33,900 bases of DNA, taken from positions 1-33,900 of IMG/VR virus record IMGVR_UViG_3300035533_000020, one strand, 5' to 3'. This document shows positions 1,108 to 33,897 of this stretch, piece after piece; the first letter of the stretch is position 1, and the number at the start of each line of letters is the position of its first letter. The notes below the pieces were generated by a model. It saw only the letters and a list, made by a program, of their open reading frames with translations, was not told the DNA's origin and made no database searches. This DNA comes from a virus. Lineage: Duplodnaviria; Caudoviricetes. The translations under genes were made by a program, and so were the position numbers.

Positions 1108-3171
1108 ATGTATGCAGAGACCAAAATAGCATCGGTTGTATTAGGTGTTTCAACTAACACATTTACTCAATGTGTGAAAAGAAACTCTAAAAAATACAAC
1201 TACAGATATATTGATGGTGTGGGCAGAGGTGGTAAAAAGCTTTTAATTGAGGTTGATGAAGTAGAGGTTGCGGTTGCTATAGATAGAGGTGACTTGCAGG
1301 AAGATATAACGGTTTATGAAGAGCTCTCAAGCGGTGAGCTTGGCGAGGTGACTTGGAATGATTTTAACGGTACTCCAAAAGAGGTTAGCGTTGGGGACCA
1401 GGAGCCAAAGCCAAAAGCAAAACCAAAAGAGACTAAGTACTTTGAACTTGACGAGCAACAAAAAGAGCAGGCTCAAGAGAGACTGCAAATTCTCAAAGAC
1501 TGGGATGAGTACAAAAAAGAGAGAGTACCTCTTAAAAAATTTATAGATCATAAAAATAGAAGCAACCCTGATTTAAAGCTCACTGAAGCAACACTCTATC
1601 GATGGCAAAGAAACTACAAAGCCAAAGGCATCACCGGCTTAGCTGATATGCGAGGCAAGGCTCGAAAAGGAAAAACAACGCTTAAGCCGTGGATGCAAGA
1701 GTTTATACTTGAGCAATTCAGAGCCTTTGGAGCCGGAGGTTTGAATATGCATCAACTGTGGGACGCACTTCATGAGGAGGCGGCTCGTAAAGGTGAGTGC
1801 GATTATATCGCATTTTTGAAAAAAGAGCAAAAACCAATATGTGACTACGGCACGGTAAAGCGGTTTATTGAAAACTACTACAAAGACAACCATCTTGAGT
1901 ATGTAATGGTAACGCAGGGTGAGGATAAAGCTAAGAGTTATCTTCAACCATCTATGGGTAACCAAAAAGAAAACATACTCAGACGAAACCAATGTTGGCA
2001 AATCGACTCATCGCCTCTTGATGTGATGGTAAGAGACGGCGAGGATGGTGCAGCATTTAGACCAGATATCCTCTCAATAGTAGATGTGTTTAGCGGTAGA
2101 AGCATTATGAGCCTTGAGCGTACATCAAACTCACTTGGGCTTGTAAGGCTTATATGGAAAGCGTTTGAGAAGTTTGGAAAGCCTGAGTATATAAAAGGTG
2201 ACAACGGTAAGGATTACTTATCTAAGCAGTTTCAAAACTTACTTAACGGACTTGGGATTGACTATGACAGATCAATCGCTTATGCAGGGGATGAGAAAGG
2301 TTTTGTCGAGAGACACTTTAGAACCGTGCAACATGCAGGTATGAGTTTCACACCAGGCTATATAGGCAACAACCTTGCAAAGCGTGAGATGATAGAGCAG
2401 AGAACTCCAAAGAGAGACCGAAAAGCAAAAGATGAGTTTGGTCATGTATCTAAAACAAATCAAAAGCACCTACTTACTTTTGAGCAGATGAAGATGAGAC
2501 TTGATACTGAGGTTGCTAAGTGGGACATCATGCGAGTTCGTAGAAAAGCAGAGAGTCCTATGGATAGATGGAACGCTGATGATACACCTATTAGAGAGGT
2601 TTCTTATGAAGAGTTTATCTTGTATGCAGGCGGAGCTGAGATCAGAACCGTAAGCAAACGAGGTATCGAGTATGAAGCTCTTAGGTTTGTGGGTGATGGA
2701 CTTCCACCGGTTGGAACTAAGGTTGTGGTTAGAGCCAACATCGACAACGCTCAAGAGATATTTGTATTTAGCTTGAGTGGAGAGTTTATCTGTAGAGCAT
2801 ACGACAAAGAGATAGCTCACATGAACGCTGAGCAGTACAAAGCTGTTAAGAAAGTGTTTAGAGATGAGATGCGTGAAGTTAGAAGAGTTATCAAGTCTGC
2901 TGAGTTCAGTGCATTTACAAGACTTTCAATCGAAGAGGATTTTGAGCGAATGCTTGCTGAGCACAAAGAGTCACTCAAACCTCAAAAAGTGGAAAAAGCA
3001 AACAATGATCTTGTTATGCAGGTCACTGAGAGACTTAGAGAGCAAAGAGAAGTTGACAGCGTAAAAGAGAGAGTTTTCGATATCGACAGTTTAAGCCTTG
3101 AGAGGGGCGTGCAAAGAAAAAGCAAACTGAGTTGGGATGATGCGATAGAGAAAGCGGTTAACTGGAGTTAG
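1108..3171 (+). CDS. Mu-like DDE transposase (MuA)
   Basis: HTH (EATLYRWQRNYK), catalytic WQIDSS / GDNGKDY / KGFVERHF, Mu-type C-terminal barrel; followed by MuB. Confidence 0.95.
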   Translation: MYAETKIASVVLGVSTNTFTQCVKRNSKKYNYRYIDGVGRGGKKLLIEVDEVEVAVAIDRGDLQEDITVYEELSSGELGEVTWNDFNGTPKEVSVGDQEPKPKAKPKETKYFELDEQQKEQAQERLQILKDWDEYKKERVPLKKFIDHKNRSNPDLKLTEATLYRWQRNYKAKGITGLADMRGKARKGKTTLKPWMQEFILEQFRAFGAGGLNMHQLWDALHEEAARKGECDYIAFLKKEQKPICDYGTVKRFIENYYKDNHLEYVMVTQGEDKAKSYLQPSMGNQKENILRRNQCWQIDSSPLDVMVRDGEDGAAFRPDILSIVDVFSGRSIMSLERTSNSLGLVRLIWKAFEKFGKPEYIKGDNGKDYLSKQFQNLLNGLGIDYDRSIAYAGDEKGFVERHFRTVQHAGMSFTPGYIGNNLAKREMIEQRTPKRDRKAKDEFGHVSKTNQKHLLTFEQMKMRLDTEVAKWDIMRVRRKAESPMDRWNADDTPIREVSYEEFILYAGGAEIRTVSKRGIEYEALRFVGDGLPPVGTKVVVRANIDNAQEIFVFSLSGEFICRAYDKEIAHMNAEQYKAVKKVFRDEMREVRRVIKSAEFSAFTRLSIEEDFERMLAEHKESLKPQKVEKANNDLVMQVTERLREQREVDSVKERVFDIDSLSLERGVQRKSKLSWDDAIEKAVNWS

Positions 3172-3227: not shown

Positions 3228-4166
3228 ATGGATTTAAGAGAAGAAATTAGGAGCTTTATAGAAAGCAACGGAATCAGTCAAAATGGGTTTGCTAAGACAA
3301 TCGGAGTTAATGCGGCTTATTTAACGGGATATATGAAAGAGGGCGAGAGCTATAAATATGCAGAAAAGGTTAAAGCCCCCGCTCAAAATTACATCGCAAA
3401 TTATATCGAAAAAAACTCTAAAAAGAAAGATAGAGACCTTGAGTTTGTGATGACACGGGATGTGAAGAGTATCTTTGCAGTGATTGAGTGGGCTGTAATG
3501 GATGAAGATATGGCAGTTATCAGCGGTCATGCAGGTATGGGAAAAAGTAGAGCTGTAGGAGAGTTTGCAAAGAACCATCCAGAGTGTTTGCTTATAGAAG
3601 CAACGATAAGCACAACGGCAAGAGACTTGTTTAAAAGAATAGCTGAGCTGCTTGGAACTAACTATAAAGGCTCGCTTGATCTTACAGTTAGAGAGTGTGC
3701 TTCGATACTGCAAAAAAGTGAGAAGTTTATCATCATTGATGAAGCGGAGCACTTACCATATAGAGCACTGGAGCTATTGAGACGGATGTATGACTTCTCA
3801 AGAAGCCCACTTATTCTGGTAGGAACTCAAAAGCTTATCAAAAACCTCACGGGTGGTGCATCGTCTCACAATGAGTATGAGCAGCTTAGCTCAAGAGTGG
3901 GCGGTAAATGGATACTGCAAGGTCTTAGCTACCCAAAAGAGCAAGACGGAAAGATGGTTGAGATTGATGATGACTTAAAAGCCGTATGTAAGCTTTTTGG
4001 GACTGATGATGCAAGCGTTGCAAAGACAATCAAACAGTACACAAAAGGCAACTTTAGAAAAACAGAGAAGCTTTTAAAGAGATCACAAAGACTGGCAAGA
4101 AGTTACGGAACCAAGATAGATAAAGAAGTGATAGAGACAGCAGTTGAGATGCTGCTTTTAAGATAG
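3228..4166 (+). CDS. Transposition AAA+ ATPase (MuB-like)
   Basis: N-terminal HTH, Walker A GHAGMGKS, Walker B IIIDEAEHL, QLSSRVG arginine-finger region. Confidence 0.93.
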   Translation: MDLREEIRSFIESNGISQNGFAKTIGVNAAYLTGYMKEGESYKYAEKVKAPAQNYIANYIEKNSKKKDRDLEFVMTRDVKSIFAVIEWAVMDEDMAVISGHAGMGKSRAVGEFAKNHPECLLIEATISTTARDLFKRIAELLGTNYKGSLDLTVRECASILQKSEKFIIIDEAEHLPYRALELLRRMYDFSRSPLILVGTQKLIKNLTGGASSHNEYEQLSSRVGGKWILQGLSYPKEQDGKMVEIDDDLKAVCKLFGTDDASVAKTIKQYTKGNFRKTEKLLKRSQRLARSYGTKIDKEVIETAVEMLLLR

Positions 4167-16735: not shown

Positions 16736-17137
16736 TTAGTTTAAAGCCATTTTTACGACATCAAAACCGTTGTCGCTTCCGCCAGGCTCACCTTTGTTTG
16801 GATACATATTGTTTCCTGGAGCTTGTCTTGGCTCTTTTTGAAACTTCAAGAACTCCTCAAAACCTTCTAAGTCGGCTTTACAGTATTTGATAGCCCACGA
16901 TCTTTGATCCCCAGTGATTTTGTTTGCCGAAATAGCTGCATCAACTTTTGTCTCAGCAAGCTGCTCTTTTAGTTTTTCAACTTCACTGGCTTCATTGTTT
17001 TGTGTAGAAGCGTTGCTTTGCTCCTCCTGGTTAGTTCCAGGGTTTTGTTCTTGCCCAGCATTATTTTCAGTTGTTGCAGGAGTTTGTGTAGTTTGCTCTT
17101 GCTCACCAGGTTGATTGTTTTCAGTCTCTTTTCCCAT
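16736..17137 (-). CDS. Internally initiated scaffold protein (Mu gpZ equivalent, 133 aa)
   Basis: In-frame ATG at 17137 with perfect AGGAGG 5 nt upstream (17148-17143). Confidence 0.65.
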   Translation of the reverse strand: MGKETENNQPGEQEQTTQTPATTENNAGQEQNPGTNQEEQSNASTQNNEASEVEKLKEQLAETKVDAAISANKITGDQRSWAIKYCKADLEGFEEFLKFQKEPRQAPGNNMYPNKGEPGGSDNGFDVVKMALN

Positions 17138-17635
17138 GTTTTCCTCCTTTTGGGTTTTTTTATTGGCATACACTTCGCCAAGCTCATCGAGAAACGGCGT
17201 GTTTGTTAGAGCTACGGAGTGAAGCGTTATGCCTGAATATGCGTTTGTCTCTTTGTCATAAGTCTCAAACACATACACTGGAGATACATATTTGTACTCA
17301 CCTTTTTTGATATACTCGGCGGCTTTTTCCGTCCACTGCAGATATGCCATAAGCTTATCACCCTCAATCTCTAGCTTATGTACCCAACCAGCTGCGGGTG
17401 CCTCAGTTCCGTAAAGCGTTTGATGCTCATAGTCAATCACGATCAGCTCTTGCTTTGAGTTATCAAAGTTATCCTTGATTTGTTTCAAGTCTTCAAGGGT
17501 TATTTTAAAAGAGCCGCTAGGATGACCGTGCCACTCCCCTACAACTCCTACAACAATTACAACTTCATTTTCATTATCCCCCTTTTTGGTGTCCTTTAAA
17601 GGAAAGATACCTTTTCTACAAAGTATATTTTTCAA
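16736..17635 (-). CDS. Prohead protease/scaffold (Mu gpI)
   Basis: IDYEHQT, APAAGW, WT..A...I..GEYKYVSPV, SVALTNTPFL; TTG start with GAGGAGGAG RBS. Confidence 0.92.
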   Translation of the reverse strand: MKNILCRKGIFPLKDTKKGDNENEVVIVVGVVGEWHGHPSGSFKITLEDLKQIKDNFDNSKQELIVIDYEHQTLYGTEAPAAGWVHKLEIEGDKLMAYLQWTEKAAEYIKKGEYKYVSPVYVFETYDKETNAYSGITLHSVALTNTPFLDELGEVYANKKTQKEENMGKETENNQPGEQEQTTQTPATTENNAGQEQNPGTNQEEQSNASTQNNEASEVEKLKEQLAETKVDAAISANKITGDQRSWAIKYCKADLEGFEEFLKFQKEPRQAPGNNMYPNKGEPGGSDNGFDVVKMALN

Positions 17636-18078
17636 AACTCCTCCTCATCTATTAAGTCGATAGTCTCTTCATAAAGAACCGCTTTGAAGTTTCTTACATA
17701 GACACTCAGATAACCATGATCCGTGATGCCGTCAAAAATCTTCTTTGAAGCGATTAGTTTAATAGGAGAGCTATTTGTAAAGCTTCTATCAATCAAGCTT
17801 TTGTCTATCGCTTCCATAAAAGCAATAATTTCATGCCTACTCTTTTCTCTGTAGGTTTCGTGCTTGGAGGATGTTGTACCTACAATATATAGGTTCCACC
17901 TGCACTCTTTGGAGTAAGTATCAATATACTCGTCACCATCAAAGTCAATAAAAACTATAGGCTCACCCTTGACACAAGCTTCAAGCTCAGTGGGATTATC
18001 AAACTCACCAAGGTAAGAGCGAACCTCACCTATAGTTTTTAAATGGTCTTTTAACTCTGTTTCAAACTGATCAACCAT
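17632..18078 (-). CDS. Putative tail terminator / head-tail joining protein (Mu gp37-like)
   Basis: V.SY.GEF, P.VFIDFDG motifs; first gene of the head operon. Confidence 0.6.
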   Translation of the reverse strand: MVDQFETELKDHLKTIGEVRSYLGEFDNPTELEACVKGEPIVFIDFDGDEYIDTYSKECRWNLYIVGTTSSKHETYREKSRHEIIAFMEAIDKSLIDRSFTNSSPIKLIASKKIFDGITDHGYLSVYVRNFKAVLYEETIDLIDEEEF

Positions 18079-18125
18079 GCAACTTCCAAATTTTTTCCGC
18101 CATTTTTACATTTATTAACGCCGAC

Positions 18126-18216
18126 AATCTATAAAGGTTTTTTAGCAAATCTTTTTATAAAGGGCTTTTTGCAAGGGCTTTATAAAAAGAATTTGTATAA
18201 AAAATAAGAATAGATT
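18126..18216. promoter_or_regulatory. Divergent late promoter region with dyad symmetry
   Basis: Perfect 13-bp inverted repeat TCTTTTTATAAAG (18150-18162) / CTTTATAAAAAGA (18178-18190), outer AATCTA/TAGATT, between divergent operons. Confidence 0.65.
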
Positions 18217-18270
18217 TTAGAAAAGCTTATTGCGTAAACTGCTGCAAAAGTTTTTTAAAAGGTGGTGCTT

Positions 18271-18687
18271 ATGAGCTGGTTTAAAAACCTCTTCAGCGAT
18301 TCGGTTGGAAGTGTTATAGATAGCGTTGGGAATACTATAGATAAGGTTGTGACTTCCGATGAAGAGAGAGGAAAACTAAAAAATGAACTTGAGACAATCA
18401 GGTCTCAAAAAGAGCTGGAGCTGCAAAGCTTAGCAAATGATTACGAAAAAGAGGTGACTAAAAGATGGGTAAGTGACAATAAAAATGTTGTTGCATCTTT
18501 AGTAAGACCATTGTCAATCGTATATATGCTTGTGATTTTTTCTATTGCGATGCTGTTTGATGGAAATGTTGGAGAGTTTCAAATCAATGAAGCATATCTT
18601 CCTTTGATAGAGACTTTCCTAACAACCATGATCGTTGCTTACTTCGGTAGTAGAGGTATAGAGAAAATAAAAGGGATGACTAAGTAA
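18271..18687 (+). CDS. Holin (3TM gene-transfer-release type)
   Basis: IDK.VTSDEER, RW.SD, VRPL, two TM helices ending YFGSRGIEK. Confidence 0.8.
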   Translation: MSWFKNLFSDSVGSVIDSVGNTIDKVVTSDEERGKLKNELETIRSQKELELQSLANDYEKEVTKRWVSDNKNVVASLVRPLSIVYMLVIFSIAMLFDGNVGEFQINEAYLPLIETFLTTMIVAYFGSRGIEKIKGMTK

Positions 18688-18926
18688 TGGAAACGCTAAT
18701 GACATATATACCTCTTGCAAACTTCTTGCTTGTGTTTTTGATTATACCTACTGTTAAGCTGCTAAATGCTTCGCAAGCAGCAATCAGAAACCAACAAAAA
18801 GAGATTGAAGAGCTTAAAAAGATTGTCTCGCAGCAAGGCGAAGAGCTGAAGCTGCTTAGACTTTTGGTTATGAAGCACTTGCCTCCTGAGGATATCAAGC
18901 AATACATGATGGAGATAACAAAATGA
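18687..18926 (+). CDS. Small TM plus coiled-coil protein (lysis accessory candidate)
   Basis: N-terminal TM then heptad pattern; coupled to the holin by TAATG. Confidence 0.6.
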   Translation: METLMTYIPLANFLLVFLIIPTVKLLNASQAAIRNQQKEIEELKKIVSQQGEELKLLRLLVMKHLPPEDIKQYMMEITK

Positions 18927-19378
18927 ATGCAGAGCTCATGAGAAGACTTGGAAACATTATACAGATAGGAACTATCTCTGAAGTGCAAGAAGAAAAGGCT
19001 CTTGCAAGAGTGACAATACTTGATAGAGTAACTGATTTTTTACCGGTAGTGATGTTTGGTAATACATTCTCAAAACACTTCAAACCTCAAAGAGTTGGAG
19101 AGCAGGTTTTGGTCATAGCTCCCTATGGAGAGACAAATGACGGGTTTATCTTAAGGGGTATTTTTAACCAGGACTGCAAAGAGCCAGTTCTTGCAAACGG
19201 CACGACAGAGGTTTTGGAATACGAAGACGGCACAGTTATTTTGTACGACACTAAAAACAAGCAGCTCTTTGTCAATGCAGTAGGTGATATCACTATTAAA
19301 GCAGGTGGAAATATCACTCTTGATGCCGGTGCTGAGATAATTGCTACCGGTAAGAACTTCAAGTGGACGGCTAAATGA
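18923..19378 (+). CDS. Baseplate spike (P2 gpV / Mu gp45)
   Basis: RRLGNIIQIGTI, P.VGEQVLV..P.GE, YEDG..I.YD. Confidence 0.9.
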   Translation: MNAELMRRLGNIIQIGTISEVQEEKALARVTILDRVTDFLPVVMFGNTFSKHFKPQRVGEQVLVIAPYGETNDGFILRGIFNQDCKEPVLANGTTEVLEYEDGTVILYDTKNKQLFVNAVGDITIKAGGNITLDAGAEIIATGKNFKWTAK

Positions 19379-19656
19379 AACCAATAACAAGAAAAGGTGA
19401 TGCACTAGCAGGACATGGTTGCTGGGGAGATCACAATATAGCCGAGGGTGATCCTACTTTTTTAATCAATGGGATACCGGCTTCTTTTCTTGGTGCAGCT
19501 TCAACGGTTCACTGCTGCGGACCAGCTTGTCACTCTGGAGGAATGGCTGGGCAGAACCATTTTATCCTAAATGGTTTATCTGCTCAAAAGATAGGTGACC
19601 CGGTTGATTGTGGTTCAACTCAAATAGCAGGTGATCCAACCTTTCAAATTGAGTAG
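19375..19656 (+). CDS. PAAR-repeat spike tip protein
   Basis: PITRKGD...GH, INGIPA, HCC...H, GDPVDCGS; follows gpV. Confidence 0.85.
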   Translation: MKPITRKGDALAGHGCWGDHNIAEGDPTFLINGIPASFLGAASTVHCCGPACHSGGMAGQNHFILNGLSAQKIGDPVDCGSTQIAGDPTFQIE

Positions 19657-19665
19657 GAGTTTGTT

Positions 19666-19947
19666 TTGTATCAAATAGGTGTAGCAGAGTCAATTAAGAG
19701 AATTTTAGAGACACCTCTTGGCTCAAGAGTAATGCGTCCTGAATTTGGAAGCAGACTACCTGAGCTTATTGATAAAAGAATGGACGAGGAGTGGAAGCTT
19801 GACTTTATCAGATTTGCTGCTGAGGCAATAGACAAGTGGGAAAAAAGAGTCAAGCTTTCAAGAGTAGAGATATTGAAAGTGGAAAACCATAAGGTTTACT
19901 ACAGATTGTATTTTAAAGATCATGGAGCTATAGATGGTGAATATTAA
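19666..19947 (+). CDS. Baseplate wedge GpW/gp25 family
   Basis: SI.RIL.TPLGSRVMRPEFGS.L, AI.KWE.R. Confidence 0.92.
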   Translation: MYQIGVAESIKRILETPLGSRVMRPEFGSRLPELIDKRMDEEWKLDFIRFAAEAIDKWEKRVKLSRVEILKVENHKVYYRLYFKDHGAIDGEY

Positions 19948-21019
19948 AGCACTACCGCAACCGCAAATCGTTGAGCAGATAGATTATGAGGTGTTGCTTG
20001 GTCAAAACATAGAGCTTGTTAAGAGAAAGTATCCTGCTTGGCAACCTCTTGAGTCTGATGACTGGATGCCTCTTATTGAGAGCTTTACTTACAAAGAGGT
20101 ACTTTTAAGAGCAAGGATAAATGAGTCTATAAAAGCGATGCTTCTTGCTACCTCAAAGGGAAGTAATCTTGATAATCTAGTGGCTGGCTTAGATATAGAG
20201 AGACTTCCAGGAACTAATCCTTATGCAAGCTATGAGTTTGAGTTAAGCCGTGCAGCTGCATCTGATGTGATTATACCTGCAAATATCATTTTAAGCAGTG
20301 AAGACGGGGTGTTTAAAGGGCGTTTAAAAGAGACAATAACAGTGCCTGCAGGAGAGACAAAGATAATCGGAACGGTTGAACTTGATCTTAATATAGAGTA
20401 CTCAGAGGCTAAGACTGAGATTATCACTTCACCTTTGCCTTATGTTCTTAAAGCAAAGAGTCTTGAGCCTTTTAATCATGGAAGCTTGCCTGAGAGTGAT
20501 GATGAGCTTGTAGAGAGATATCTTTTGTCATTGAGAAGATTCTCTACTGCAGGAAGTGTTGGCAGCTACAAGTTTCATGCAATGAGTGCTGATGAGAGAG
20601 TCGATGATGTGAGCGTTGATAGTCCAAGCCCGGGTGTAGTTAATGTCTATCTTGCATCAAGTGACGGAGTTGACCAGGTGATGATTGATAGAGTCTTATC
20701 TGTTTTGAGTCATGAAAAGGTAAGACCGCTTACAGATACGGTTAATGTATCGGCTGCAAATATTATCACTATAAATATCAGTGCTGCTATAACTGTTTTT
20801 GATCTAGCTCAAGCAGCTGCTATTGAAAACTCTATCCGTTCAAACTTTCAAAGAAGATTTAAGATAGATCAAAACTTCACTATGTCTGACATCGTTAAGT
20901 CTTGTCATGTTGAGGGTGTTTATAAAGCTGTTATCAACACTCCAGAGGCTGATGTTGTGACAACCAAAGCAGATGTTATCACTATAAATGAAGTGACACT
21001 GAGCTTCGAGGAGTATTAA
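19934..21019 (+). CDS. Baseplate J protein
   Basis: LP.P.IVE.IDYE, G.NLDNL, ESDDEL, STAGS..SY.FHA, VRPLTD.V.V. Confidence 0.93.
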   Translation: MVNIKALPQPQIVEQIDYEVLLGQNIELVKRKYPAWQPLESDDWMPLIESFTYKEVLLRARINESIKAMLLATSKGSNLDNLVAGLDIERLPGTNPYASYEFELSRAAASDVIIPANIILSSEDGVFKGRLKETITVPAGETKIIGTVELDLNIEYSEAKTEIITSPLPYVLKAKSLEPFNHGSLPESDDELVERYLLSLRRFSTAGSVGSYKFHAMSADERVDDVSVDSPSPGVVNVYLASSDGVDQVMIDRVLSVLSHEKVRPLTDTVNVSAANIITINISAAITVFDLAQAAAIENSIRSNFQRRFKIDQNFTMSDIVKSCHVEGVYKAVINTPEADVVTTKADVITINEVTLSFEEY

Positions 21020-21020
21020 G

Positions 21021-21758
21021 ATGAGTTTGCTTCCTGGTAACGAGTCAGAGCATTTAAAAGTCTTTGATGACATCTTTGAAAAATCAACCACTGCGGATGT
21101 AAGCGGAATAACAATCCTGCCACAAGATGCAAGAGCAGAGATACTTCCATACCTTGCACACATGTTTGATGTTGATATCTCAGGTCTTAGCCCCAGCGAA
21201 CAAAGATCACTTATTCAAAATGCTATTGAGATACATAGATACGAGGGTACTTTATACGCCGTTAAGAAAGCTTTGTTGTCTGTTTTTTCTCAAGCTGAAA
21301 TAATTGAGTGGTTTGATGTCGGAGGTGATCCTTATACTTTTGATGCAAAGGTAACGATAGGGACATCTCTTGACCAGATTTTTGATGCTAAGAAGTTTGA
21401 GAAGTGCAGAGAGCTTATCAATATGGCTAAAAATGAGCGTTCTCACTTTTTGAGTTTTTATGTTGAGCTTCCTAAAAGTAAAGGTCTTATCGGATGTGAT
21501 ACTGCTATGAACTGGAAGACTGAGACAAAGGGAGGTACGGCTTTAAGTAAAAAAAGCGACTGTCAAATCGGCTTCCAAAGTGGAGCTGCTTTTATAGACG
21601 GCTCACAAAAGAGCTGCTCTTTGTCAAAGAGTAGTTTATGCGACCTACAGTTGAGAAGTGGCAGCACTCACCGCTTCGATGCGAAAGCAAGCTGTAGTAT
21701 CGCTAGAGAGAGTGCTTTACAAATCAACACGATAGGAGGAATTACATGGCGAATTTAA
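21021..21758 (+). CDS. Tail protein I (P2 gpI family)
   Basis: SLLP.N, LPYLA..F.VD, HRYEGT..AVK.AL, EWF..GG.PYTF, KNERSH. Confidence 0.88.
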   Translation: MSLLPGNESEHLKVFDDIFEKSTTADVSGITILPQDARAEILPYLAHMFDVDISGLSPSEQRSLIQNAIEIHRYEGTLYAVKKALLSVFSQAEIIEWFDVGGDPYTFDAKVTIGTSLDQIFDAKKFEKCRELINMAKNERSHFLSFYVELPKSKGLIGCDTAMNWKTETKGGTALSKKSDCQIGFQSGAAFIDGSQKSCSLSKSSLCDLQLRSGSTHRFDAKASCSIARESALQINTIGGITWRI

Positions 21759-22300
21759 CCGCCGTCCCTACACAGCAAGGGATAGGCATATTAAACACGG
21801 AGCTTAGAAACAGTGTTACTAAGTTTGTTCTTATAGGTGCGACAAACTATACAGATGCAAACCTTGACACTCTTCTTGGCGATACGGAGGTAATAACATA
21901 CGCTGATATTCAGGGGCATGTTTTTTATCACGGCACTGTAGAGAGTGCATATTTTGATGATGACGGAGTGCTTACTTTTGAGCTGCTTCTACCTCTTGAG
22001 GATGATCTTCAAAAATACACTTATGCAGTTGGGCTTGTAAGTGAGAGCAATGAGCTTGTGAGTATCACTCCAACTCCAAAGATAGTTTTAATCTCTGGTG
22101 TGGGTGGTACTTTTGTTGTAAAAGTATCTGTCAAAGGTAGCCCTGGAGAGATAGTTTTTAAAAACAGTGAGTATGTGACTCCAGCTGAGTTGCAGAACCA
22201 CAAAGAGAATGTTTTAAGACCGGTCGTTGCAAACGCAACCAACTATTTTGATCTAACAGACAAACTTATAGAAAAAGGAGTAATTGATGTTAACAACTGA
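21746..22300 (+). CDS. Tail fibre N-terminal / collar-like adaptor protein
   Basis: Follows gpI; PTQQG start and VGL.....L.....P.I pattern of fibre baseplate-attachment domains. Confidence 0.55.
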   Translation: MANLTAVPTQQGIGILNTELRNSVTKFVLIGATNYTDANLDTLLGDTEVITYADIQGHVFYHGTVESAYFDDDGVLTFELLLPLEDDLQKYTYAVGLVSESNELVSITPTPKIVLISGVGGTFVVKVSVKGSPGEIVFKNSEYVTPAELQNHKENVLRPVVANATNYFDLTDKLIEKGVIDVNN

Positions 22301-23951
22301 AGAGCTTAATATAGCTATAGAGGAGCTTCTTGTTAAGGCAAGAAGTGTTTTTGATAAGTACGATGGAGCTTTTGCTGCTATTGGTGCTCAAAAAGACGGT
22401 GCGGTGAGTGAGTTAAATACATTGCACACGCAGTTGATGGATGACTTGCAAGCTTTGGCAAACGGTGTCGGTCTTGAACATGAGTGGGACGGTACATCTG
22501 TAAGGTTTAAACAAAATGATGGAGCTTGGGGAAGCTGGGTAAATCTTCAAGCACCTTCAAGTTTTGATTATGAAGCTAAAGGCATACCTACAGAGACGAT
22601 AAACCCTATAAGTGCTGATGCAAAATGGCTTGACTTAAGAACTGCAGAGATATTTGTTTGTACGGACAATACTACGGACAAGAACGCTTGGGTTGGAAGC
22701 AATGGGACTATCATTGGAACAATTAAGCCACCTGAAGCTGGACAAGCAGGCTTCCCTAACGGTGTTGCACCTAGTTTCTTGGTTGAGATGTATGGACTGT
22801 CTCCTCTTGAGGGCTTCACAGACCCAACACATGAAAACTACGGTAATTATAAAGATGCTAGCGGTTCTATAATGGTTTATAGACCTAAAAGATATGTAAA
22901 AAAATCACATGATGTTAATGAGCCATATTTTGGTACAAGAATAGATGTCAGCGATACGCAACAAGTGGGTTATAGCTTGCCTAGATGTTTCATTAATAAT
23001 GGAGTTGAGATACCAGGTGTTTTTGTTGATAAGTTCCATCTTGGTAAAGAGGGGGCAGTTGGAGTCTCAAAAAGAAATCTTGACCCGGTAAGCACAAATA
23101 CTGCACACAATCCTATTAGTGCTCTAACTGCAAACTCTCAAGCACCAGCAAATCGGTATGATGGCATGTATGCTGCTGTTAAGACAAGAGGTGATGATTA
23201 TTCTCTTGAATCAATATTTTTGTTTACATTTATGGCAGATATGGCTGATGCACACTACCAAGCGTGTTTTAGAGCTGGAGATTTTTCAAGTTGTGCATGG
23301 GCTGATGTTGCACCGTACCAACCAAAAGGTTGTAACAACGATGCACTTGCAGACAATGATGATGCATCTGTTACATACACTGGCTCTGGGTATAGCAACT
23401 GTGGATTAACAGGTGGAGTACCTGATGCTGTGTTTGCAAAGATATGCGATAACGGTCAAAAGTGTGGTGTGGCTGACCTTAACGGTAACATGTGGGAGGT
23501 TGTGGCTGGATATATTACTGATGCTTCAGGAAACTACTTTGTACTTAAAGAGAGTGTGGATATCAAGAGCTTAACTGCAAGTGCCGCTTATGATACTGCG
23601 AACTATGATGCGATCACTATTCCGCTTACACTTGATAACACGCAAGTAGCCTTTGGAAATGGAACAAATCAGTTCTTTAGCGGTAGCACGGATAGAAACT
23701 CTGATGCATACAAGCTTGATAATATTGGTCTGCCTATGGCTGATACCGCAGTGAGCTCGGCTGGTACTGCCAGATATGGTCAGGATGGTTTTTGGAGATA
23801 TCAGACTGCATCAATGTGTCCGATTGCCGGCGGTTATTGGGACAACGCTGCTCTTTCCGGTGTTCGCGCTCGGAATTTGAACGGCACTCGCGCGTATTCG
23901 AGCGCGGGTGTGGGTGGGCGTGCCTGCCTGATTCCTTCAGTAGCAGGGTGA
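22287..23951 (+). CDS. DGR target: tail receptor-binding protein with C-terminal C-type-lectin (FGE-like, Mtd-like) fold
   Basis: GVFVDKF, GVADLNGNMWE, GGYW...GVR......GGR motifs; the 3' end is the VR; occupies the tail-fibre position; ATG 22287 best spaced from AAGGAG. Confidence 0.9.
   Translation: MLTTEELNIAIEELLVKARSVFDKYDGAFAAIGAQKDGAVSELNTLHTQLMDDLQALANGVGLEHEWDGTSVRFKQNDGAWGSWVNLQAPSSFDYEAKGIPTETINPISADAKWLDLRTAEIFVCTDNTTDKNAWVGSNGTIIGTIKPPEAGQAGFPNGVAPSFLVEMYGLSPLEGFTDPTHENYGNYKDASGSIMVYRPKRYVKKSHDVNEPYFGTRIDVSDTQQVGYSLPRCFINNGVEIPGVFVDKFHLGKEGAVGVSKRNLDPVSTNTAHNPISALTANSQAPANRYDGMYAAVKTRGDDYSLESIFLFTFMADMADAHYQACFRAGDFSSCAWADVAPYQPKGCNNDALADNDDASVTYTGSGYSNCGLTGGVPDAVFAKICDNGQKCGVADLNGNMWEVVAGYITDASGNYFVLKESVDIKSLTASAAYDTANYDAITIPLTLDNTQVAFGNGTNQFFSGSTDRNSDAYKLDNIGLPMADTAVSSAGTARYGQDGFWRYQTASMCPIAGGYWDNAALSGVRARNLNGTRAYSSAGVGGRACLIPSVAG
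23815..23926 (+). repeat. DGR variable repeat (VR)
   Basis: 112-nt ungapped match to 24416-24527 with 12 mismatches, all opposite TR adenines. Confidence 0.97.
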
Positions 23952-23960
23952 TAACCCTGC
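23943..23960 (+). promoter_or_regulatory. DGR target-recognition hairpin/cruciform downstream of VR/IMH
   Basis: GCAGGGT-GATA-ACCCTGC: 7-bp perfect stem, 4-nt GRNA-type loop. Confidence 0.85.
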
Positions 23961-23986
23961 GATAAATAAGGAATAAAAGGGAAAGT

Positions 23987-24388
23987 ATGACAATTAGTGC
24001 TGAGACAACTTTTGTAAGAAAGTATATAGACTTTTTGAAGCAGCTTAACATGTACCTCAATCACTTCCCAAGACATGAGAAGTATGCTCTTGCTCAAGCA
24101 ATTAGACAAGATGCGTACCGTGTCTTTGACTTGATGGTTGAAGGTCAAAAGAAGTACTACAAAAAGACAAGTTTGACTGAGCTAGATATCACTTTTGAGC
24201 AGCTCAAGTCTAAGCTTTTATTGGCGTACCATCTTGGATATTTTCAGTTCAAGGATGGGAAAACAGATAGCAAAAACCCTACCACGATGAGTGAGAAAAG
24301 GTTTGCCGTTCTCTCAAGAATGGCTGATGAGCTCGGTCGCATGATTGGCGGCTGGATAAAGAAAGTCAAAGAAGATAAGAAATGGTAG
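23987..24388 (+). CDS. avd: DGR accessory variability determinant (Avd, four-helix bundle)
   Basis: FPRHEKYALAQAIR, KKTSL.ELD, ELGRMIGGWIK; between VR and TR. Confidence 0.95.
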   Translation: MTISAETTFVRKYIDFLKQLNMYLNHFPRHEKYALAQAIRQDAYRVFDLMVEGQKKYYKKTSLTELDITFEQLKSKLLLAYHLGYFQFKDGKTDSKNPTTMSEKRFAVLSRMADELGRMIGGWIKKVKEDKKW

Positions 24389-24415
24389 TACTATCAGGCA
24401 TCATACGATCATGTC

Positions 24416-24527
24416 TGTGTCCGATTGCCGGCGGTAATTGGAACAACGCTGCTCTTTCCGGTGTTCGCACTCGGAATTTGAACAACACTCGCACGAATTC
24501 GAACACGAATGTGGGTGGGCGTGACTG
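24416..24527 (+). ncRNA. DGR template repeat (TR), part of the DGR RNA
   Basis: AAY-rich copy of VR between avd and RT; 24 adenines, none at wobble positions. Confidence 0.95.
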
Positions 24528-24654
24528 TGACTTTACTTCCTCGCAGCTTAACAGCTTGTGGAGTGACAGGGATATGGTGTCTGGCTTTTTAGCGAAATAT
24601 TTTAAAACCTCGATTGTGGTAGGCGATAAAGCCGAAGCTCTAAAGGAACTGTGT

Positions 24655-25650
24655 TTGAAGCGGCGTGGAAATTTATATGAAGAGATCATAAGTAGTGAAA
24701 ATATGTTTCAGGCTTTTAAAGATGTAAAAAGCAGCAAGAGAAACAATAAGACCGTTTATGAGTTTGAGTTGAATTTTGGCAGAGAGATGGGTAACTTGCT
24801 CCTGGAGCTACAAAAAGGAACCTATAAGCCAAAGCCGTACAATAAGTTTTATGTGTATGAGCCTAAAAAGCGTGTTATATACGCTCCGGCTTTTAGAGAT
24901 ACAGTTGTGCAGCATGCTCTTTATAGGGTTGTATATCCTATATTTGAAAGAACATTTATCACTCAATCTCATGGTTGCAGGAGAGATCATGGTTGTCATA
25001 GTGCAAGCGATTATCTCTTAAAAAAGATGAGAGCTTGTGACGGTGAGGAGTACTTCCTCCAGCTAGACATAAAGAAGTATTTTTACTCTTTTGATAGATC
25101 AGTCTTAAGAAAGCTTCTTGAGAGAAAGATCAAAGACAAAAGAGTGGTTGATCTTCTTATGATGTTTGCAGATTTTGAGGGAGACAGAGGCGTTCCTATA
25201 GGAAACCTTTTGTCTCAACTCTACGGTCTTATATATCTTAATCCGCTTGACCACTATGTGAAGCGAACCCTCAAGGTTAAGAACTATGTGAGATATGTTG
25301 ATGATTTTGTGCTGATTGGTCTGAGCCAGAGCCAAGCAAATTTGTATCTTGAGCAGATTAAACTCTTTTTGAAAAATGAACTTGGGCTTGAGCTTTCAAA
25401 GGCGACCAGGGCAAAGATCAAAAAGGGAATAAACTTTGTCGGGTATCGAACCTGGCAGAGTCATCGGCTTGTTAGAAAGTATGCGGTTCATAAGTTTAGA
25501 AGAGCTTGTGTGAGAGGAAAGGTTGAGTCTGTGGTGAGCATGATCGGTCATGCAAAAGATACGCAGACTATACCTCACTACAAACAGATTTTAAAGGAGT
25601 TTGGTATGACTGAAAAATTACCTAAAAAACTACAAAGGAGTATGGTATGA
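24655..25650 (+). CDS. DGR reverse transcriptase (331 aa from TTG 24655)
   Basis: KRVIYAPAFRDTVVQHA, LDIKKYF, GVPIGNLLSQ (DGR-type SQ), YVRYVDDF, INFVGY; AAGGA RBS at 24643-24647 and MKRRGNLYE start; frame is open from 24382. Confidence 0.96.
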   Translation: MKRRGNLYEEIISSENMFQAFKDVKSSKRNNKTVYEFELNFGREMGNLLLELQKGTYKPKPYNKFYVYEPKKRVIYAPAFRDTVVQHALYRVVYPIFERTFITQSHGCRRDHGCHSASDYLLKKMRACDGEEYFLQLDIKKYFYSFDRSVLRKLLERKIKDKRVVDLLMMFADFEGDRGVPIGNLLSQLYGLIYLNPLDHYVKRTLKVKNYVRYVDDFVLIGLSQSQANLYLEQIKLFLKNELGLELSKATRAKIKKGINFVGYRTWQSHRLVRKYAVHKFRRACVRGKVESVVSMIGHAKDTQTIPHYKQILKEFGMTEKLPKKLQRSMV

Positions 25651-26204
25651 GCAAGAGATACTATAGGTTCAACGACCTAAAAACAGATGATGCGGTTCTT
25701 AGCCTTGTCTTTCACAATATAGACAATGAAAAGATAAAAGTTTACAAAACTGATGATGAAAAGGTGTGCTCTATCGATGCAGATACTGCAGAACATGACA
25801 CTTGGCTTGCAGCTCAGCTTGTAGATATGAACGAGATTACTTTTGATGAGTTCTTTGTTTTAAGAGCACAGAGTAAAGCTTGGCAGCTTGAGTGGCAGTT
25901 CACAAAAGAGCTGAGACAAAAAGAGCTTGATGATGCGGCGGTCGCAGTCAATACGATTGAGTACGATGCGAACGAGAGTGCGATGAATAGAGTTGATAGG
26001 ATTTTGACTCTTGCAGGCTGGAAATTTAATCAGGCTTTGGCTGCTGGAGCAACTGCTGCGGAAGCTTATGAGTCGGTTTACAAGATAACGGTGCCTTGGA
26101 AAGGCAGAGACAACGAGTTCCATGATGTGCAGATTGAGAGCTTAGCAAAAGCTCAAGAAGCTGCAATAAACAACATGAGAGTTGTTTGGGAGAAGTACGA
26201 ATGA
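25647..26204 (+). CDS. Tail fibre-associated/assembly protein (DUF4376-like C-terminus)
   Basis: R..ELD...V......YDANE.AM.R and W...DN motifs; ATGA-coupled to RT. Confidence 0.6.
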   Translation: MSKRYYRFNDLKTDDAVLSLVFHNIDNEKIKVYKTDDEKVCSIDADTAEHDTWLAAQLVDMNEITFDEFFVLRAQSKAWQLEWQFTKELRQKELDDAAVAVNTIEYDANESAMNRVDRILTLAGWKFNQALAAGATAAEAYESVYKITVPWKGRDNEFHDVQIESLAKAQEAAINNMRVVWEKYE

Positions 26205-26668
26205 TAGTCGCATTTTACAAGGTTGACCATAGCGGTGCGACACTTGTTGATAAAGCTATCGCATGGTGGACTAGCGGTTTTAAAGCTAAGTTTAACGGTG
26301 AGTGGAAAAAGAGCTACTCTCATACTGAGATTGTTTTTTCAGATGGGGTTATGATCTCATGCTCTCCAAGAGAGGGAGAGGTTAGAGCCAAAAAACACAC
26401 TGAGAATAAAGCTCACTGGGATTACTTGGATTTAAGCGGTCTTGATGAAGAGACGGCTCGTGCTTTTGCTGACACTCAAGTCGGTAAAAAGTATGACTGG
26501 CTTGGAGTTGCTGGTTTTGTGATAGGTGTAAGAGAAAACGAAAAAAGATGGTTTTGCTCGGAGCTTAGCACTAGAGTACTTCAAATAGGTGGGTGCATCA
26601 AGCTTGGAGATATCACTCCAGCTAGAGTAAGCCCTAATAGACTCTATAAACTTTTAAAAAGGAGATAA
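26201..26668 (+). CDS. Permuted papain-like (NlpC/P60, YiiX-like) enzyme
   Basis: YSHTEI ... GKKYDW.G ... WFCSEL ... SPN.L, His before Cys; ATG 26201 coupled by ATGA. Confidence 0.7.
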   Translation: MIVAFYKVDHSGATLVDKAIAWWTSGFKAKFNGEWKKSYSHTEIVFSDGVMISCSPREGEVRAKKHTENKAHWDYLDLSGLDEETARAFADTQVGKKYDWLGVAGFVIGVRENEKRWFCSELSTRVLQIGGCIKLGDITPARVSPNRLYKLLKRR

Positions 26669-26669
26669 C

Positions 26670-27872
26670 ATGGCATCAAATTACGGTGTAAATACTATAA
26701 CTACGGTAAACGCAGCTAGACCTATCAGGATAAACTCTTCGACTCCTATCGGTATCGCTGCATCTGTTTTGCTTGACGCAAATGTGGAAGCGGAGGCGGC
26801 AATCTTAGAGAAGCTAAATGCTGATGATGGAATGCTTTATTATGGAAGTCCTGATGAGGCTCTTGAAGATTTTAAAGAAAATCTTGGGACTGTTAGAAAC
26901 GCTCTTGATGGTATTGCTGATCAAAATGTAAACGCACCGGTTGTGCTTTCATTGGTTCAGATTGACCAGACTCAATACGATGCAGGGGCTCCAGAGGATA
27001 CTTACGGCGACCCAGCTGTTAAGAGTGCGGTCATCACTGCCGTTGGGAACTTGAGAAAATCGGGTGCTAAGTTTGGGGTAAAACCTAATCTTATTATTGC
27101 ACCGTTCTTTTCACATGATCTTGACATCAATGCTGAGATGAAGTCGGTTGCTGATGCATTGCTTGCTACGGGTATCGTTGACTTGAACGCTGTGGATGAA
27201 GCTGATGTAAACACTCAGGTTGATAATTACGGTACTAGAAGATTGCTTCTTTGTGATCCTTATGTGAAAGTGTGGGACACGGTTGCAGATGCAGCAGCTT
27301 ATGAGCCGTCTTCAGCAAGAATCGCAGGAATGATCGCAAGAACTGACAGTGAGGTTGAGTACGGTTGGGCGGACTCATTTTCAAACAGAGTTGTAAACGG
27401 TATCAGTGGCTCTAAAAGAGATATTGAGTTTACTCCAGGGCAAGAGTGTGAAGCGGACAGACTTAGAACTAAAGCTGTTACTACTCTTATCAGATACAAC
27501 GGTTTCAGAGCTTGGGGTGGAGAGACAACTGATATTGATCCTATCTGGCAAGACCTTACAAGAGTGAGAGTTTTTGACCGTGTGTGTGAAGCTGCTCTTG
27601 ATGGATTGTTTTGGGCTATCGATAGAAGAGCTGATATCTTGAAGTCTGCTAAAGACTCGGTTGAGCAGATGCTGCTTGCTTTGAAAGGTTCATCTGTGCT
27701 GCTTGGTTTCAATGTGTACTGGGACCCGGAAAAAAACACAAGAGCGAACATCACTGCAGGTAAGTTCTACATGGTCGCAGAGATGCAAAACATGCCAATA
27801 GTCAAAAGGCTAGAGGTGAACTTCAGCTATGTTGACAAATATGCTGATGTTTTAATTAAGCAAATTTCATAA
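26670..27872 (+). CDS. Contractile tail sheath protein (P2 FI-like)
   Basis: P.LIIAP.FS, SARIAG.IARTD, SNR.V.GI, GFRAWG.ET, F..VR-like region. Confidence 0.93.
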   Translation: MASNYGVNTITTVNAARPIRINSSTPIGIAASVLLDANVEAEAAILEKLNADDGMLYYGSPDEALEDFKENLGTVRNALDGIADQNVNAPVVLSLVQIDQTQYDAGAPEDTYGDPAVKSAVITAVGNLRKSGAKFGVKPNLIIAPFFSHDLDINAEMKSVADALLATGIVDLNAVDEADVNTQVDNYGTRRLLLCDPYVKVWDTVADAAAYEPSSARIAGMIARTDSEVEYGWADSFSNRVVNGISGSKRDIEFTPGQECEADRLRTKAVTTLIRYNGFRAWGGETTDIDPIWQDLTRVRVFDRVCEAALDGLFWAIDRRADILKSAKDSVEQMLLALKGSSVLLGFNVYWDPEKNTRANITAGKFYMVAEMQNMPIVKRLEVNFSYVDKYADVLIKQIS

Positions 27873-27884
27873 TAGGAGTTAAGT

Positions 27885-28391
27885 ATGGCTGATGTAAGAA
27901 AATCACAAACAATCAACGGAGCAACTCTTTTCGTTGAGGGTCTTGGGTTTATAGGTACAACCTCTGAGGTTGAGTTGCCGGCGATTGAGTTTGAGACTTT
28001 TGAGGGGAACGGCGGTGTTTATAAAAGAGAGATAAACACTGCAATGCTTAAAGCTCTGACTACAAAGATGAAGCTGAGTGAGTATAACAAGGTTCTTTAT
28101 GAGTCTATGGCTAAGCACTTCACTAAAGAGACTCAAATCTATGTGAAGTGGAATGTTAGTGGCAAAAAAGGGAACTTCTCTCATGTGGCTACATTTAGAG
28201 GAGAGATCAAGAAGTTTACTCCTCCAAAGGTCGAGTACGGAAAAGAGATCGGTGTTGAGCTTGAGCTTGCAAACTCATTTTATAAGCTAGAGGAAGATGG
28301 AAACACTAGAGTTTTAATCGACCTTGATGCTTATGTGTGTGAGATTGACGGTGTGGATGTTTGGCAAGAGCTTAGAGAAAATATTTTATAA
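27885..28391 (+). CDS. Tail tube protein (P2 FII-like)
   Basis: LFVEG.GF.G...EVELP.I, YKLE.DG, IDGVD; follows the sheath gene. Confidence 0.88.
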   Translation: MADVRKSQTINGATLFVEGLGFIGTTSEVELPAIEFETFEGNGGVYKREINTAMLKALTTKMKLSEYNKVLYESMAKHFTKETQIYVKWNVSGKKGNFSHVATFRGEIKKFTPPKVEYGKEIGVELELANSFYKLEEDGNTRVLIDLDAYVCEIDGVDVWQELRENIL

Positions 28392-28401
28392 GGAGTGAAG
28401 C

Positions 28402-28611
28402 GTGGAAAAAGTACAGATCAACGGAAAAGATGTAGAGGTAAGAGAGCCAAAAGTTAGAGACCTAAGAGCGGTCTCTCAGTATCAAAGCGAGGAAGATAAA
28501 GAGGTTCATTTAATCTCTAATATCACTGGACTTACTACTGATGAGATTGATGATCTATCAATCAAAGAGTATAGAAAGCTCCAGGAGAAGCTGCAAGGTT
28601 TTTTATCATAA
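28402..28611 (+). CDS. Tail assembly chaperone (P2 gpE / Mu gp41-like)
   Basis: REPKVRDL, E..LI..ITGL..DEIDDL...Y..L; ends in slippery T TTT TTA. Confidence 0.88.
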   Translation: MEKVQINGKDVEVREPKVRDLRAVSQYQSEEDKEVHLISNITGLTTDEIDDLSIKEYRKLQEKLQGFLS

Positions 28612-28748
28612 TCCCTTGGAGGGATGTAGTCTCTGGCATATCTAAGCTGGGGGCTGCTTTCAACCAGGGATATGGTGAGTGTCTTGAGATGCCTATAAGC
28701 GATTTTATAACTTTAAACGCTGAGGCTAATGAGTTAAACAGTAAATAA
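28402..28748 (+). CDS. Frameshifted tail assembly chaperone (gpE+E' equivalent)
   Basis: -1 frame after 28599-28605 is open to TAA 28746-28748 and fills the gap before the tape measure gene. Confidence 0.75.
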
Positions 28749-28793
28749 AGGGTCTTTAAAGACCCTTTGTTGGCTGTTTAAAGAGGAGTTAAA

Positions 28794-33814: not shown

Positions 33815-33897
33815 TAAAATGAAAGTATCTAACCCGTTTTAAAGGTTGGACTTTCATTTTAAATACAAAAGACTTTCATTTTAAAAACCGTTTTACA
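33815..33897. repeat. Mu-type right end (attR): two direct and one inverted transposase-binding sites, terminal CA
   Basis: GACTTTCATTTTAAA at 33849 and 33871 (22-bp period), inverted TAAAATGAAAGT at 33815-33826, ACA at 33895-33897. Confidence 0.85.

What the first reader, a model, noticed from the sequence alone, without database searches (positions are those of the whole stretch)
22287..25650. Complete DGR hypermutating the receptor-binding protein of a Mu-like transposable phage
Seen: target-VR-hairpin-avd-TR-RT in one cassette inside the tail operon. VR (23815-23926) and TR (24416-24527) align over 112 nt without gaps, and all 12 mismatches lie at TR adenines (9 A>G, 2 A>T, 1 A>C). RT keeps YVDD and GNLLSQ, and avd is intact. 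Known: this is the Bordetella phage BPP-1 architecture (mtd-avd-TR-brt) for tropism switching. Inference: the DGR occupies the slot where Mu has its Gin-invertible G segment, and no invertase is visible, so mutagenic retrohoming replaces inversion. DGRs are already known in some transposable gut phages. Any novelty lies in this lineage (probably Campylobacterota) and its P2-like tail context.
Basis: partly seen in the sequence, partly recalled or inferred. Interest (0 to 1): 0.9.

Follow-up and report, generated by a model that had tools for sequence, protein, structure and literature searches.

The report
Active DGR in Mu-like Arcobacter-family phage
A transposing phage, likely of Arcobacter-family bacteria, carries a complete cassette that has rewritten the adenine-coded positions at the tip of a lectin-fold protein predicted to be its tail-fibre adhesin; this pairing is already known, but across its relatives the reverse transcriptase is likely translated straight through its own template RNA.

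Summary
Confirmed. VR 23815-23926 and TR 24416-24527 differ at 12 of 112 bases, all at TR adenines. In four oil-field runs the only listed differences over 20 kb are 15 changes, all at TR adenines in VR, so the element has been active. The RT groups with DGR RTs. The target folds like TaqVP (Z 32) and Mtd. The phage is Mu-type: two relatives sit in chromosomes with TG...CA ends and 5-bp duplications, and a 90%-level relative is in Halarcobacter anaerophilus. The pairing is known: hankyphage, Mushu, BalMu-1, Bise; this scan also found it on other DNA. 'Replaces Gin inversion' is only an analogy, since DGR-less relatives lack an invertase too. One thing I did not find described: in 37 of 51 RTs of this clade one stop-free frame runs through TR into RT, in 35 from a start at the avd stop. 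A 43-member subclade lost the usual start; 11 members that gained a nearby start lost the open frame. This window keeps both starts, so its own case is open.

The parts
21746..22300 (+). 184-aa ORF, likely the N-terminal (tail-collar) module of a split tail fibre; overlaps the target's start
   Evidence: Atlas hits PF12571 clusters at 0.92, 184-187 shared features; no Pfam or PHROG hit of its own. In homolog P0048 PF12571 (187 bits) is fused to the same C-terminal domain
22287..23951 (+). DGR target, 554 aa: N-terminal helix (4-60), small beta domain, C-terminal CLec/FGE-type domain
   Evidence: AlphaFold2 mean pLDDT 92; TaqVP 5vf4 Z 32.1, rmsd 2.9 over 293 residues; Mtd 1yu3 Z 12.7, rmsd 3.8 over 197
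23815..23926 (+). Variable repeat VR, codons 511-547; 15 codons hold a TR adenine
23910..23942 (+). G+C-rich end of VR and likely IMH (differs from the TR flank at non-A positions)
   Evidence: sequence; IMH role inferred from BPP-1
23943..23960 (+). DNA hairpin, 7-bp stem, 4-nt loop, over the target stop codon; outer stem 23931-37/23968-74
   Evidence: inner stem kept in L001, L088, L012, L014, L089 with loop changes only
23987..24388 (+). avd, 133 aa
   Evidence: Pfam bAvd 60 bits, phrog_3206
24395..24405 (+). 5' arm of the duplex that clamps TR (counterpart of BPP-1 avd:Sp 'cPRT Stop', inferred)
   Evidence: pairs with 24573-24583; 37 of 51 clade members pair 11-12 of 12, against 8 of 510 control windows, with compensatory changes
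24416..24527 (+). Template repeat TR, 24 adenines
   Evidence: no listed difference in X1-X4
24573..24583 (+). 3' arm of the TR-clamping duplex, in the spacer
24382..25650 (+). Long RT frame, 422 aa: ATG overlapping the avd stop, then TR in its VR-coding frame, spacer and RT core, no stop
   Evidence: use of this start is inferred, not shown
24655..25650 (+). RT core, 331 aa, from TTG with AAGGA 7 nt upstream; GNLLSQ 25201, YVDD 25294
25647..26204 (+). 185-aa ORF, DUF4376-like, likely tail-fibre associated
   Evidence: Atlas 0.92, 177 shared features; lead only
1108..3171 (+). MuA-type DDE transposase (context)
   Evidence: rve + Mu-transpos_C, phrog_310
3228..4166 (+). MuB-type ATPase (context)
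   Evidence: AAA_22, phrog_296
33816..33897 (+). Right end of the phage: repeated 12-mer sites and terminal CA (context)
   Evidence: homology to relatives stops at CA; unitigs of X1-X4 end at 33897

Best explanation
This is a complete diversity-generating retroelement of a Mu-type phage that has rewritten adenine-coded positions at the end of a lectin-fold protein, likely the tail-fibre tip, and so likely changes which host surface the phage binds. Steps. (1) Inferred: avd-TR-spacer-RT is transcribed with the tail operon. (2) Inferred from BPP-1 and from conserved pairing: the RNA clamps TR in an 11-bp duplex and binds RT and Avd. (3) Known for the family, signature shown here: RT miscopies adenines and the cDNA replaces VR, guided by the IMH and hairpin. 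(4) Shown: alleles that differ only at TR-adenine positions coexist in one sample and between relatives. (5) Predicted: the changed residues lie in a CLec domain like TaqVP/Mtd. (6) Inferred: this alters receptor binding. (7) Inferred for the clade, open for this phage: RT is made by ribosomes that restart at the avd stop and read through TR.
For: TR/VR pattern. X1-X4: over window 13901-33900 at depth 300-670 the only listed differences are 15, all in VR and all at TR A, P = 8e-13; minor allele 27-40% of depth. That allele is the consensus of another assembly, P0001. X5 has a third allele, 11 changes, the 6 shown all at TR A. Relatives with identical TR differ in VR at 8 of 8 (L001/L088) and 15 of 15 (L012/L014) TR-A positions. 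RT: 179.7 bits to BPP-1 bRT 8ub7 against 88.3 to the best named group II RT; tree separates 72 rows holding BPP-1, BalMu-1 and Bise from 5 group II RTs, SH-aLRT 99. Fold. Position between baseplate gpI/tail-collar ORF and sheath, where CAM-P21 has annotated tail fibres; fusion of the same domain to PF12571 in P0048. Mu ends with 5-bp duplications in G001 and G002. Host: MuA cluster members named Halarcobacter anaerophilus and Arcobacteraceae.
Against: Only assembled contigs were available, not reads; X1-X4 show the same two alleles, may be one campaign and may be the window's source, so they show past diversification and not a present rate. In pairs whose TRs differ slightly, 1 difference per pair lies outside a TR adenine (14 of 15, 11 of 12, 18 of 19, 11 of 12). 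Receptor binding is untested; the target has no Pfam or NCBIfam hit, and Mushu's DGR target was called a capsid decoration protein (PMC5883640, passages). No retron RT was in the tree. No RNA run holds the stretch.
Confidence: 0.9

Rival explanations
1. The DGR was active in the past but is now quiet; the two alleles are standing variants of two co-occurring phage clones.
For: The same two alleles recur in X1-X4 at steady shares and no swarm of rare alleles is visible; one relative (L017/L091) keeps the target homolog without avd, TR or RT.
Against: The two clones show no other listed difference over 20 kb, so they split very recently; all parts are intact; X5, X6 and X10 carry further alleles. 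Contigs drop rare variants, so a swarm could not be seen.
Confidence: 0.15
2. The target is an accessory adhesin or decoration protein, not the primary receptor-binding protein, so diversification tunes attachment rather than host range.
For: No direct test; CLec folds are general binders; Mushu precedent (PMC5883640, passages).
Against: No other fibre-like gene lies between gpI and sheath apart from the 184-, 185- and 155-aa ORFs; the same domain is fused to a tail-collar fibre module in P0048.
Confidence: 0.15
3. In this phage RT starts at TTG 24655 as in ordinary DGRs, and the open frame through TR is an inherited or chance leftover with no role.
For: TTG with AAGGA (duplex -5.7 kcal/mol) is kept in 5 of 5 subclade rows. 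The upstream ATG arises from avd's last Trp codon and is also present, out of frame, in L097/L015/L016. With the 26 substitutions seen between the window and L014, 26% of random placements leave the frame open. The spacer peptide differs between this subclade and the large one. A public 331-aa call exists (P0124).
Against: A shuffled spacer of this composition is stop-free about 5% of the time and must also be in frame; spacers of 120 and 132 nt are both multiples of 3 with 0 stops against 18 and 17 in the other frames (5 rows); only 2 of 47 RTs outside the clade have the trait.
Confidence: 0.55
4. The DGR replaced a Gin-type invertible segment in this lineage.
For: It sits in the tail-fibre slot, and no Resolvase or Phage_integrase match lies in the window or inside the two whole prophages.
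Against: DGR-less relatives with the same gene order also lack both families; no inverted repeats flank the slot among the 25 longest pairs.
Confidence: 0.07

Closest known systems
Bordetella phage BPP-1 DGR (mtd-avd-TR-brt; NC_005357; PDB 8UB7, 1YU0); Wu et al. architecture B1, CLec1
   Same: Gene order, adenine-only TR/VR differences, hairpin after VR, Avd, RT (33% identity), CLec target, TR-clamping duplex (bioRxiv 2023.10.23.563531, passages)
   Different: BPP-1 integrates at a tRNA gene and starts brt at an ATG at the RT core; its upstream open frame is not the VR-coding frame. The target here is closer to TaqVP and has a long N-terminal helix.
Pseudomonas phage Bise (OR683401)
   Same: Transposase, Mor, Gam, contractile tail; target-avd-TR-RT after baseplate J and before dam; VR/TR 116 nt with 9 adenine mismatches; RT 49.5% identical
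   Different: Gammaproteobacterial host; RT has its own ATG and the frame is closed upstream. The GenBank record does not annotate the DGR.
Bacillus phage BalMu-1 (NC_030945)
   Same: Tail-slot target, Avd, VR/TR pair, RT 37% identical; its MuA-type nature rests on its name and on its listing among MuA hits
   Different: Gram-positive host, PBSX-type tail genes, FGE-annotated target
Hankyphage (Bacteroides) and Mushu (Faecalibacterium)
   Same: Transposable phages with shown DGR activity (PMC12135933 and PMC5883640, passages)
   Different: Gut hosts; Mushu target called Hoc-like; not compared by sequence here
Campylobacter phage CAM-P21 (MW462221) and Helicobacter Mu-like prophages
   Same: Same overall gene order; MuA 43%, terminase 60%, capsid 41%
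   Different: Plain tail-fibre genes in the slot; no RT, no recombinase
DiGReF structural group 3 (PMC3521204, section 13)
   Same: [quoted passage not shown]
   Different: There it is an annotation class with no mechanism; the authors suppose TR and RT RNAs are transcribed separately. Here the overlap tracks loss and regain of the RT start codon on a tree.

Membership tests
DGR (BPP-1 type) | TR/VR pair differing at TR adenines | tested here: met
   12 of 12
DGR (BPP-1 type) | RT of the DGR class, intact motifs | tested here: met
   best PDB hit bRT 179.7 bits; tree; under cut-off for group II (132 of 300) and retron St85 (35 of 235) models; no retron row in the tree
DGR (BPP-1 type) | Avd accessory gene | tested here: met
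   Pfam bAvd 60 bits, cut-off 40; NCBIfam 71, cut-off 80
DGR (BPP-1 type) | VR at the 3' end of a CLec- or Ig-fold gene | tested here: met
   codons 511-547 of 554; TaqVP Z 32.1; predicted model
DGR (BPP-1 type) | IMH/IMH* and DNA hairpin after VR | tested here: met
   hairpin z -4.99; flanks differ at non-A bases; function not tested
DGR (BPP-1 type) | RNA duplex between segments up- and downstream of TR | tested here: met
   37 of 51 rows against 8 of 510 control windows; arms were chosen by best pairing, so the count leans high; duplex energies did not beat shuffles
DGR (BPP-1 type) | Natural VR variation confined to TR adenines with invariant TR | tested here: met
   15 of 15 in X1-X4; contigs only
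DGR (BPP-1 type) | RT-dependent mutagenic homing and change of tropism | not testable with these tools
   needs a lysogen and mutants
Mu-like transposable phage | MuA DDE transposase and MuB ATPase | tested here: met
Mu-like transposable phage | TG...CA ends with 5-bp target duplication | tested here: met
   in relatives G001 (GTATA) and G002 (GTAAA); the window holds only the right end
Mu-like transposable phage | GemA, Mor, Mu portal, protease I, gpF | tested here: met
Mu-like transposable phage | Variable host DNA packaged at virion ends | not testable with these tools
   no raw reads; unitigs end at the terminal CA, which fits but does not show it
Mu G-segment system | Gin-type serine invertase and inverted gix sites | tested here: not met
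Group II intron | RT/maturase over the family cut-off, grouping with intron RTs | tested here: not met

The most novel reading that the evidence does not exclude
A Campylobacterota clade of DGRs, this phage included, makes its reverse transcriptase by translational coupling to avd: ribosomes restart at the avd stop and read through the template repeat and the priming spacer. The template RNA is then also the RT's coding sequence, RT carries an 80-100-residue leader made of the TR peptide, and translation and folding into the reverse-transcription complex compete on one molecule, which would set the Avd:RT ratio and the mutation rate. I put this at about 0.75 for the 32-member core of the clade and lower for this phage, which keeps a second start.
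Probability: 0.45. Interest if true: 0.62.

Novelty: new member of a known kind. Interest (0 to 1): 0.4.

Why it matters
The element itself is a clean, naturally active example of a well-known system, in a host family for which my searches found no DGR paper, with a named species carrying a close relative, so it can be studied at the bench. The part that could matter more is how RT is made. In the reconstituted BPP-1 system, adding a ribosome-binding site to brt raised activity 100-fold and moving TR out of the operon a further 35-fold (PMC12875486, passages), so RT translation and TR availability limit DGR activity. A natural clade that appears to translate through TR, with a nested group that reverted, gives matched pairs for asking how DGR rate is controlled.

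Tried and rejected
(1) Reading the window as a whole genome with TG at base 4 and a TAT duplication: rejected, relatives extend 1.3-1.8 kb further left with a repressor and the true end. (2) A second target: the VR/TR detector found one pair in the window. (3) Invertase: none in the window, the two whole prophages or five comparison records. (4) Promoter and terminator scan 23700-24800: at chance level. (5) Duplex energy against shuffled spacers did not discriminate; the fixed-length pairing count did. (6) Codon-position diversity in the spacer of 32 rows was 0.20/0.26/0.31: weak, so I do not claim a conserved peptide function. (7) A structure prediction of the 422-aa RT was not finished at the last collection; nothing rests on it. 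(8) No retron RT was obtained; three candidate RTs scored as group II-like, group II and Drt3a. (9) The careful tree did not finish; both trees are quick IQ-TREE runs with SH-aLRT only, with long-branch warnings. (10) Literature: searches found no paper on DGRs in Arcobacteraceae prophages or on RT translation through TR; the library lacks most subscription papers. (11) Runs X10-X20 hold 0.42-0.54 of the words; only X10 of these was laid, so the rest are not used as evidence.
Full report
Observation. VR 23815-23926 and TR 24416-24527 align over 112 nt without gaps with 12 mismatches, all at TR adenines (9 G, 2 T, 1 C); with 24 adenines in TR the chance is 6e-10. Fifteen codons hold a TR adenine. 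One mismatch, 23923, is C in all 23 VR-bearing target proteins printed and likely belongs to the IMH, not to mutagenesis. A 7-bp DNA hairpin follows VR (z -4.99, 0 of 200 shuffles). Avd passes the Pfam cut-off and misses the NCBIfam one. The RT keeps GNLLSQ and YVDD.

The RT is a DGR RT. Its best solved relative is BPP-1 bRT at 179.7 bits; the next hits score under 89. In a 96-row quick tree it lies among 72 rows that include BPP-1, BalMu-1 and Bise, apart from 5 group II intron RTs and 19 long Campylobacterota RTs without a VR/TR pair (SH-aLRT 99). No retron was in the tree; the retron St85 model gives 35 bits against a cut-off of 235.

Activity. Five oil-field metagenome runs hold all sampled words of the cassette; they may be the window's source. 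In X1-X4, laid on window 13901-33900 at depth 300-670, the only listed differences are 15 substitutions, all in VR and all at TR adenines (P 8e-13), carried by a second unitig at 27-40% of depth. One 60-nt unitig at depth 8.6 with one other letter, near 16270, appears in the piece table of X1 only. The minor allele is the consensus of another assembly (P0001). X5 has a third allele with 11 changes, of which 6 were shown, all at TR adenines; X6 and X10, from other studies, have further alleles on a more diverged background (100 rows not shown). Among fetched relatives, pairs with identical TR differ in VR at 8 of 8 and 15 of 15 TR-adenine sites; pairs whose TRs differ have one difference each elsewhere. 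These are contigs: they show recent diversification, not a rate, and the four runs repeat the same two alleles.

Target. The model (pLDDT 92, 111 sequences) has a 57-residue N-terminal helix and a C-terminal domain matching TaqVP (Z 32.1, rmsd 2.9, 293 residues), Mtd (12.7) and TvpA (12.0). The upstream 184-aa ORF resembles the tail-collar fibre module PF12571, and in homolog P0048 that module is fused to the same C-terminal domain. CAM-P21 has annotated tail fibres in this slot. A role as fibre tip is therefore likely; receptor binding is untested.

Phage and host. MuA, MuB, GemA, Mor, Mu-type head genes and a P2-type contractile tail are present. Two relatives are whole prophages with TG...CA ends and 5-bp duplications: G001, 90-93% identical over long stretches, and G002, Aliarcobacter, about 70%. 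They show that the window lacks the repressor and left end. Members of the window's MuA cluster are named Halarcobacter anaerophilus and Arcobacteraceae, and the sister target cluster carries names from both Aliarcobacter and Sulfurimonas (mostly MAGs, and two rows are labelled Cloacimonetes, so binning errors are possible). In a sample of 401 genomes of the phylum, 4 had an RT match better than E 1e-100, G002 among them by choice.

Inversion. No Resolvase or Phage_integrase match lies in the window or inside the two whole prophages. But CAM-P21, BK070133 and L017, which share the gene order and have no RT, lack them too. The DGR fills the role that inversion has in Mu (recalled), but nothing shows that it displaced an invertase.

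Precedent. Transposable phages with active DGRs are published: hankyphage (PMC12135933, passages) and Mushu (PMC5883640, passages). I found the same cassette in the tail slot of BalMu-1 and of Bise by my own VR/TR scan. Earlier notes of this scan list 12 such findings on other DNA and Campylobacterota phage DGRs; these are unchecked and are not counted as support. The architecture is B1 of Wu et al. (PMC5758913, passages and section 22).

What came up on the way. The window's RT frame is open for 92 codons upstream of the core, from an ATG that overlaps the avd stop, through TR in its VR-coding frame and through the spacer. I scored this in 102 distinct loci with RT at least 44% identical to L020 (2 more skipped for short flanks); 98 with a core over 240 aa went into a tree with two outgroups. 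One clade of 51 rows (SH-aLRT 99; every named member Campylobacterota) has the open frame in 37; outside it 2 of 47 have it, both from a scan whose query contained TR, and both keep an ATG at the core. All 47 outside rows have ATG, GTG or TTG just before the RT core motif. A 43-row subclade (98) has none there. Of these 43, 32 are open, with spacers of six lengths from 123 to 138 nt, all multiples of 3, and 73 and 221 stops in the other two frames (the zero in frame is by definition). The other 11 form one nested group (94) that has a new ATG or TTG 13-17 codons before the core with a Shine-Dalgarno duplex of -5.3 to -11.8 kcal/mol and a closed frame. In 35 of the 37 open rows an in-frame ATG or GTG lies within -7 to +2 of the avd stop (ATGA, TAATG, TAGTG and the like); the exceptions are L214 and L094. 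Three rows (L181, L187, L206) have no in-frame start within 45 codons of the core. The same RNA holds the TR-clamping duplex, with compensatory changes (37 of 51 rows against 8 of 510 control windows), the counterpart of the BPP-1 'cPRT Stop' (bioRxiv 2023.10.23.563531, passages).

Against that reading: 23 of the 32 open rows also have an in-frame TTG 11-15 codons before the core, some with a good Shine-Dalgarno match, which could be the real start. Rows are related, so the pattern rests on few events (5 changes on the tree). The spacer peptide is weakly constrained and differs between subclades. In the window's own 5-row subclade TTG 24655 with AAGGA is kept, the upstream ATG comes from avd's last Trp codon, and 26% of random substitution sets would leave the frame open. 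Overlap of TR with an annotated RT ORF was listed as structural group 3 by DiGReF without a mechanism (PMC3521204, section 13). My searches found no paper on translation through TR; PMC8144416 was seen in passages only, and no supplements were read.

Verdict. A real, complete, recently active DGR in a Mu-type phage of Arcobacteraceae-type hosts: a new member of a known kind. The likely translation of RT through TR across its clade is the one feature that may be a new variant, and it is testable. Interest 0.4.

Noticed in passing
L113:1556-5893 and L114:1775 onward (G002:C6): The Aliarcobacter relative is inserted, with a 5-bp duplication, just after the tube gene of another prophage that has its own DGR (VR 2419-2531, TR 2932-3044, avd, RT 33% identical); tape-measure and gpD genes resume beyond it. 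Two unrelated DGR phages are nested.
   Followed up: partly
window 22716-22760 versus L088, L089, L012 at 10430-10780: Close relatives carry about 99 extra residues near target aa 144-157 that the window lacks; X10 has a different middle section. The fibre is modular outside VR. No Pfam hit.
   Followed up: partly
L091/L017 9674-12300: Arcobacter Mu-like prophage with a 45%-identical target fused to a tail-collar module but no avd, TR or RT: gain or loss of the cassette behind a fixed target.
   Followed up: partly
L046, L051, L056, L098: Target homologs followed by only a stub of avd and/or the end of RT: DGRs that lost their middle by deletion.
   Followed up: no
window 137-763: About 700 bp with small minus-strand ORFs between the operator-like region and the ner-like gene, absent from G001 and G002.
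   Followed up: no
window 10128-18078: The head operon is on the minus strand, opposite to early and tail genes, as in CAM-P21 and BK070133.
   Followed up: partly
window 19375-19656: Stand-alone PAAR gene after the spike gene; not matched in L012 or L089 at the same place.
   Followed up: no
window 32923-33783: Dam-type adenine methylase next to the right end, as in Bise and CAM-P21.
   Followed up: no
window 6402, 11030, 15173, 20307, 28757, 33781: Recurring TTTAAAC/TTTAAA-rich 30-39-nt motif at gene boundaries, possibly a regulatory or transposase-related site.
   Followed up: no
L117:7013-7842 (OR683401): Phage Bise carries an unannotated DGR: VR/TR 116 nt, 9 mismatches at adenines.
   Followed up: yes
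L134-L157: Many sampled Campylobacterota genomes hold 730-770-aa RT frames without a VR/TR pair; possibly CRISPR-associated RT fusions (guess, not tested).
   Followed up: no
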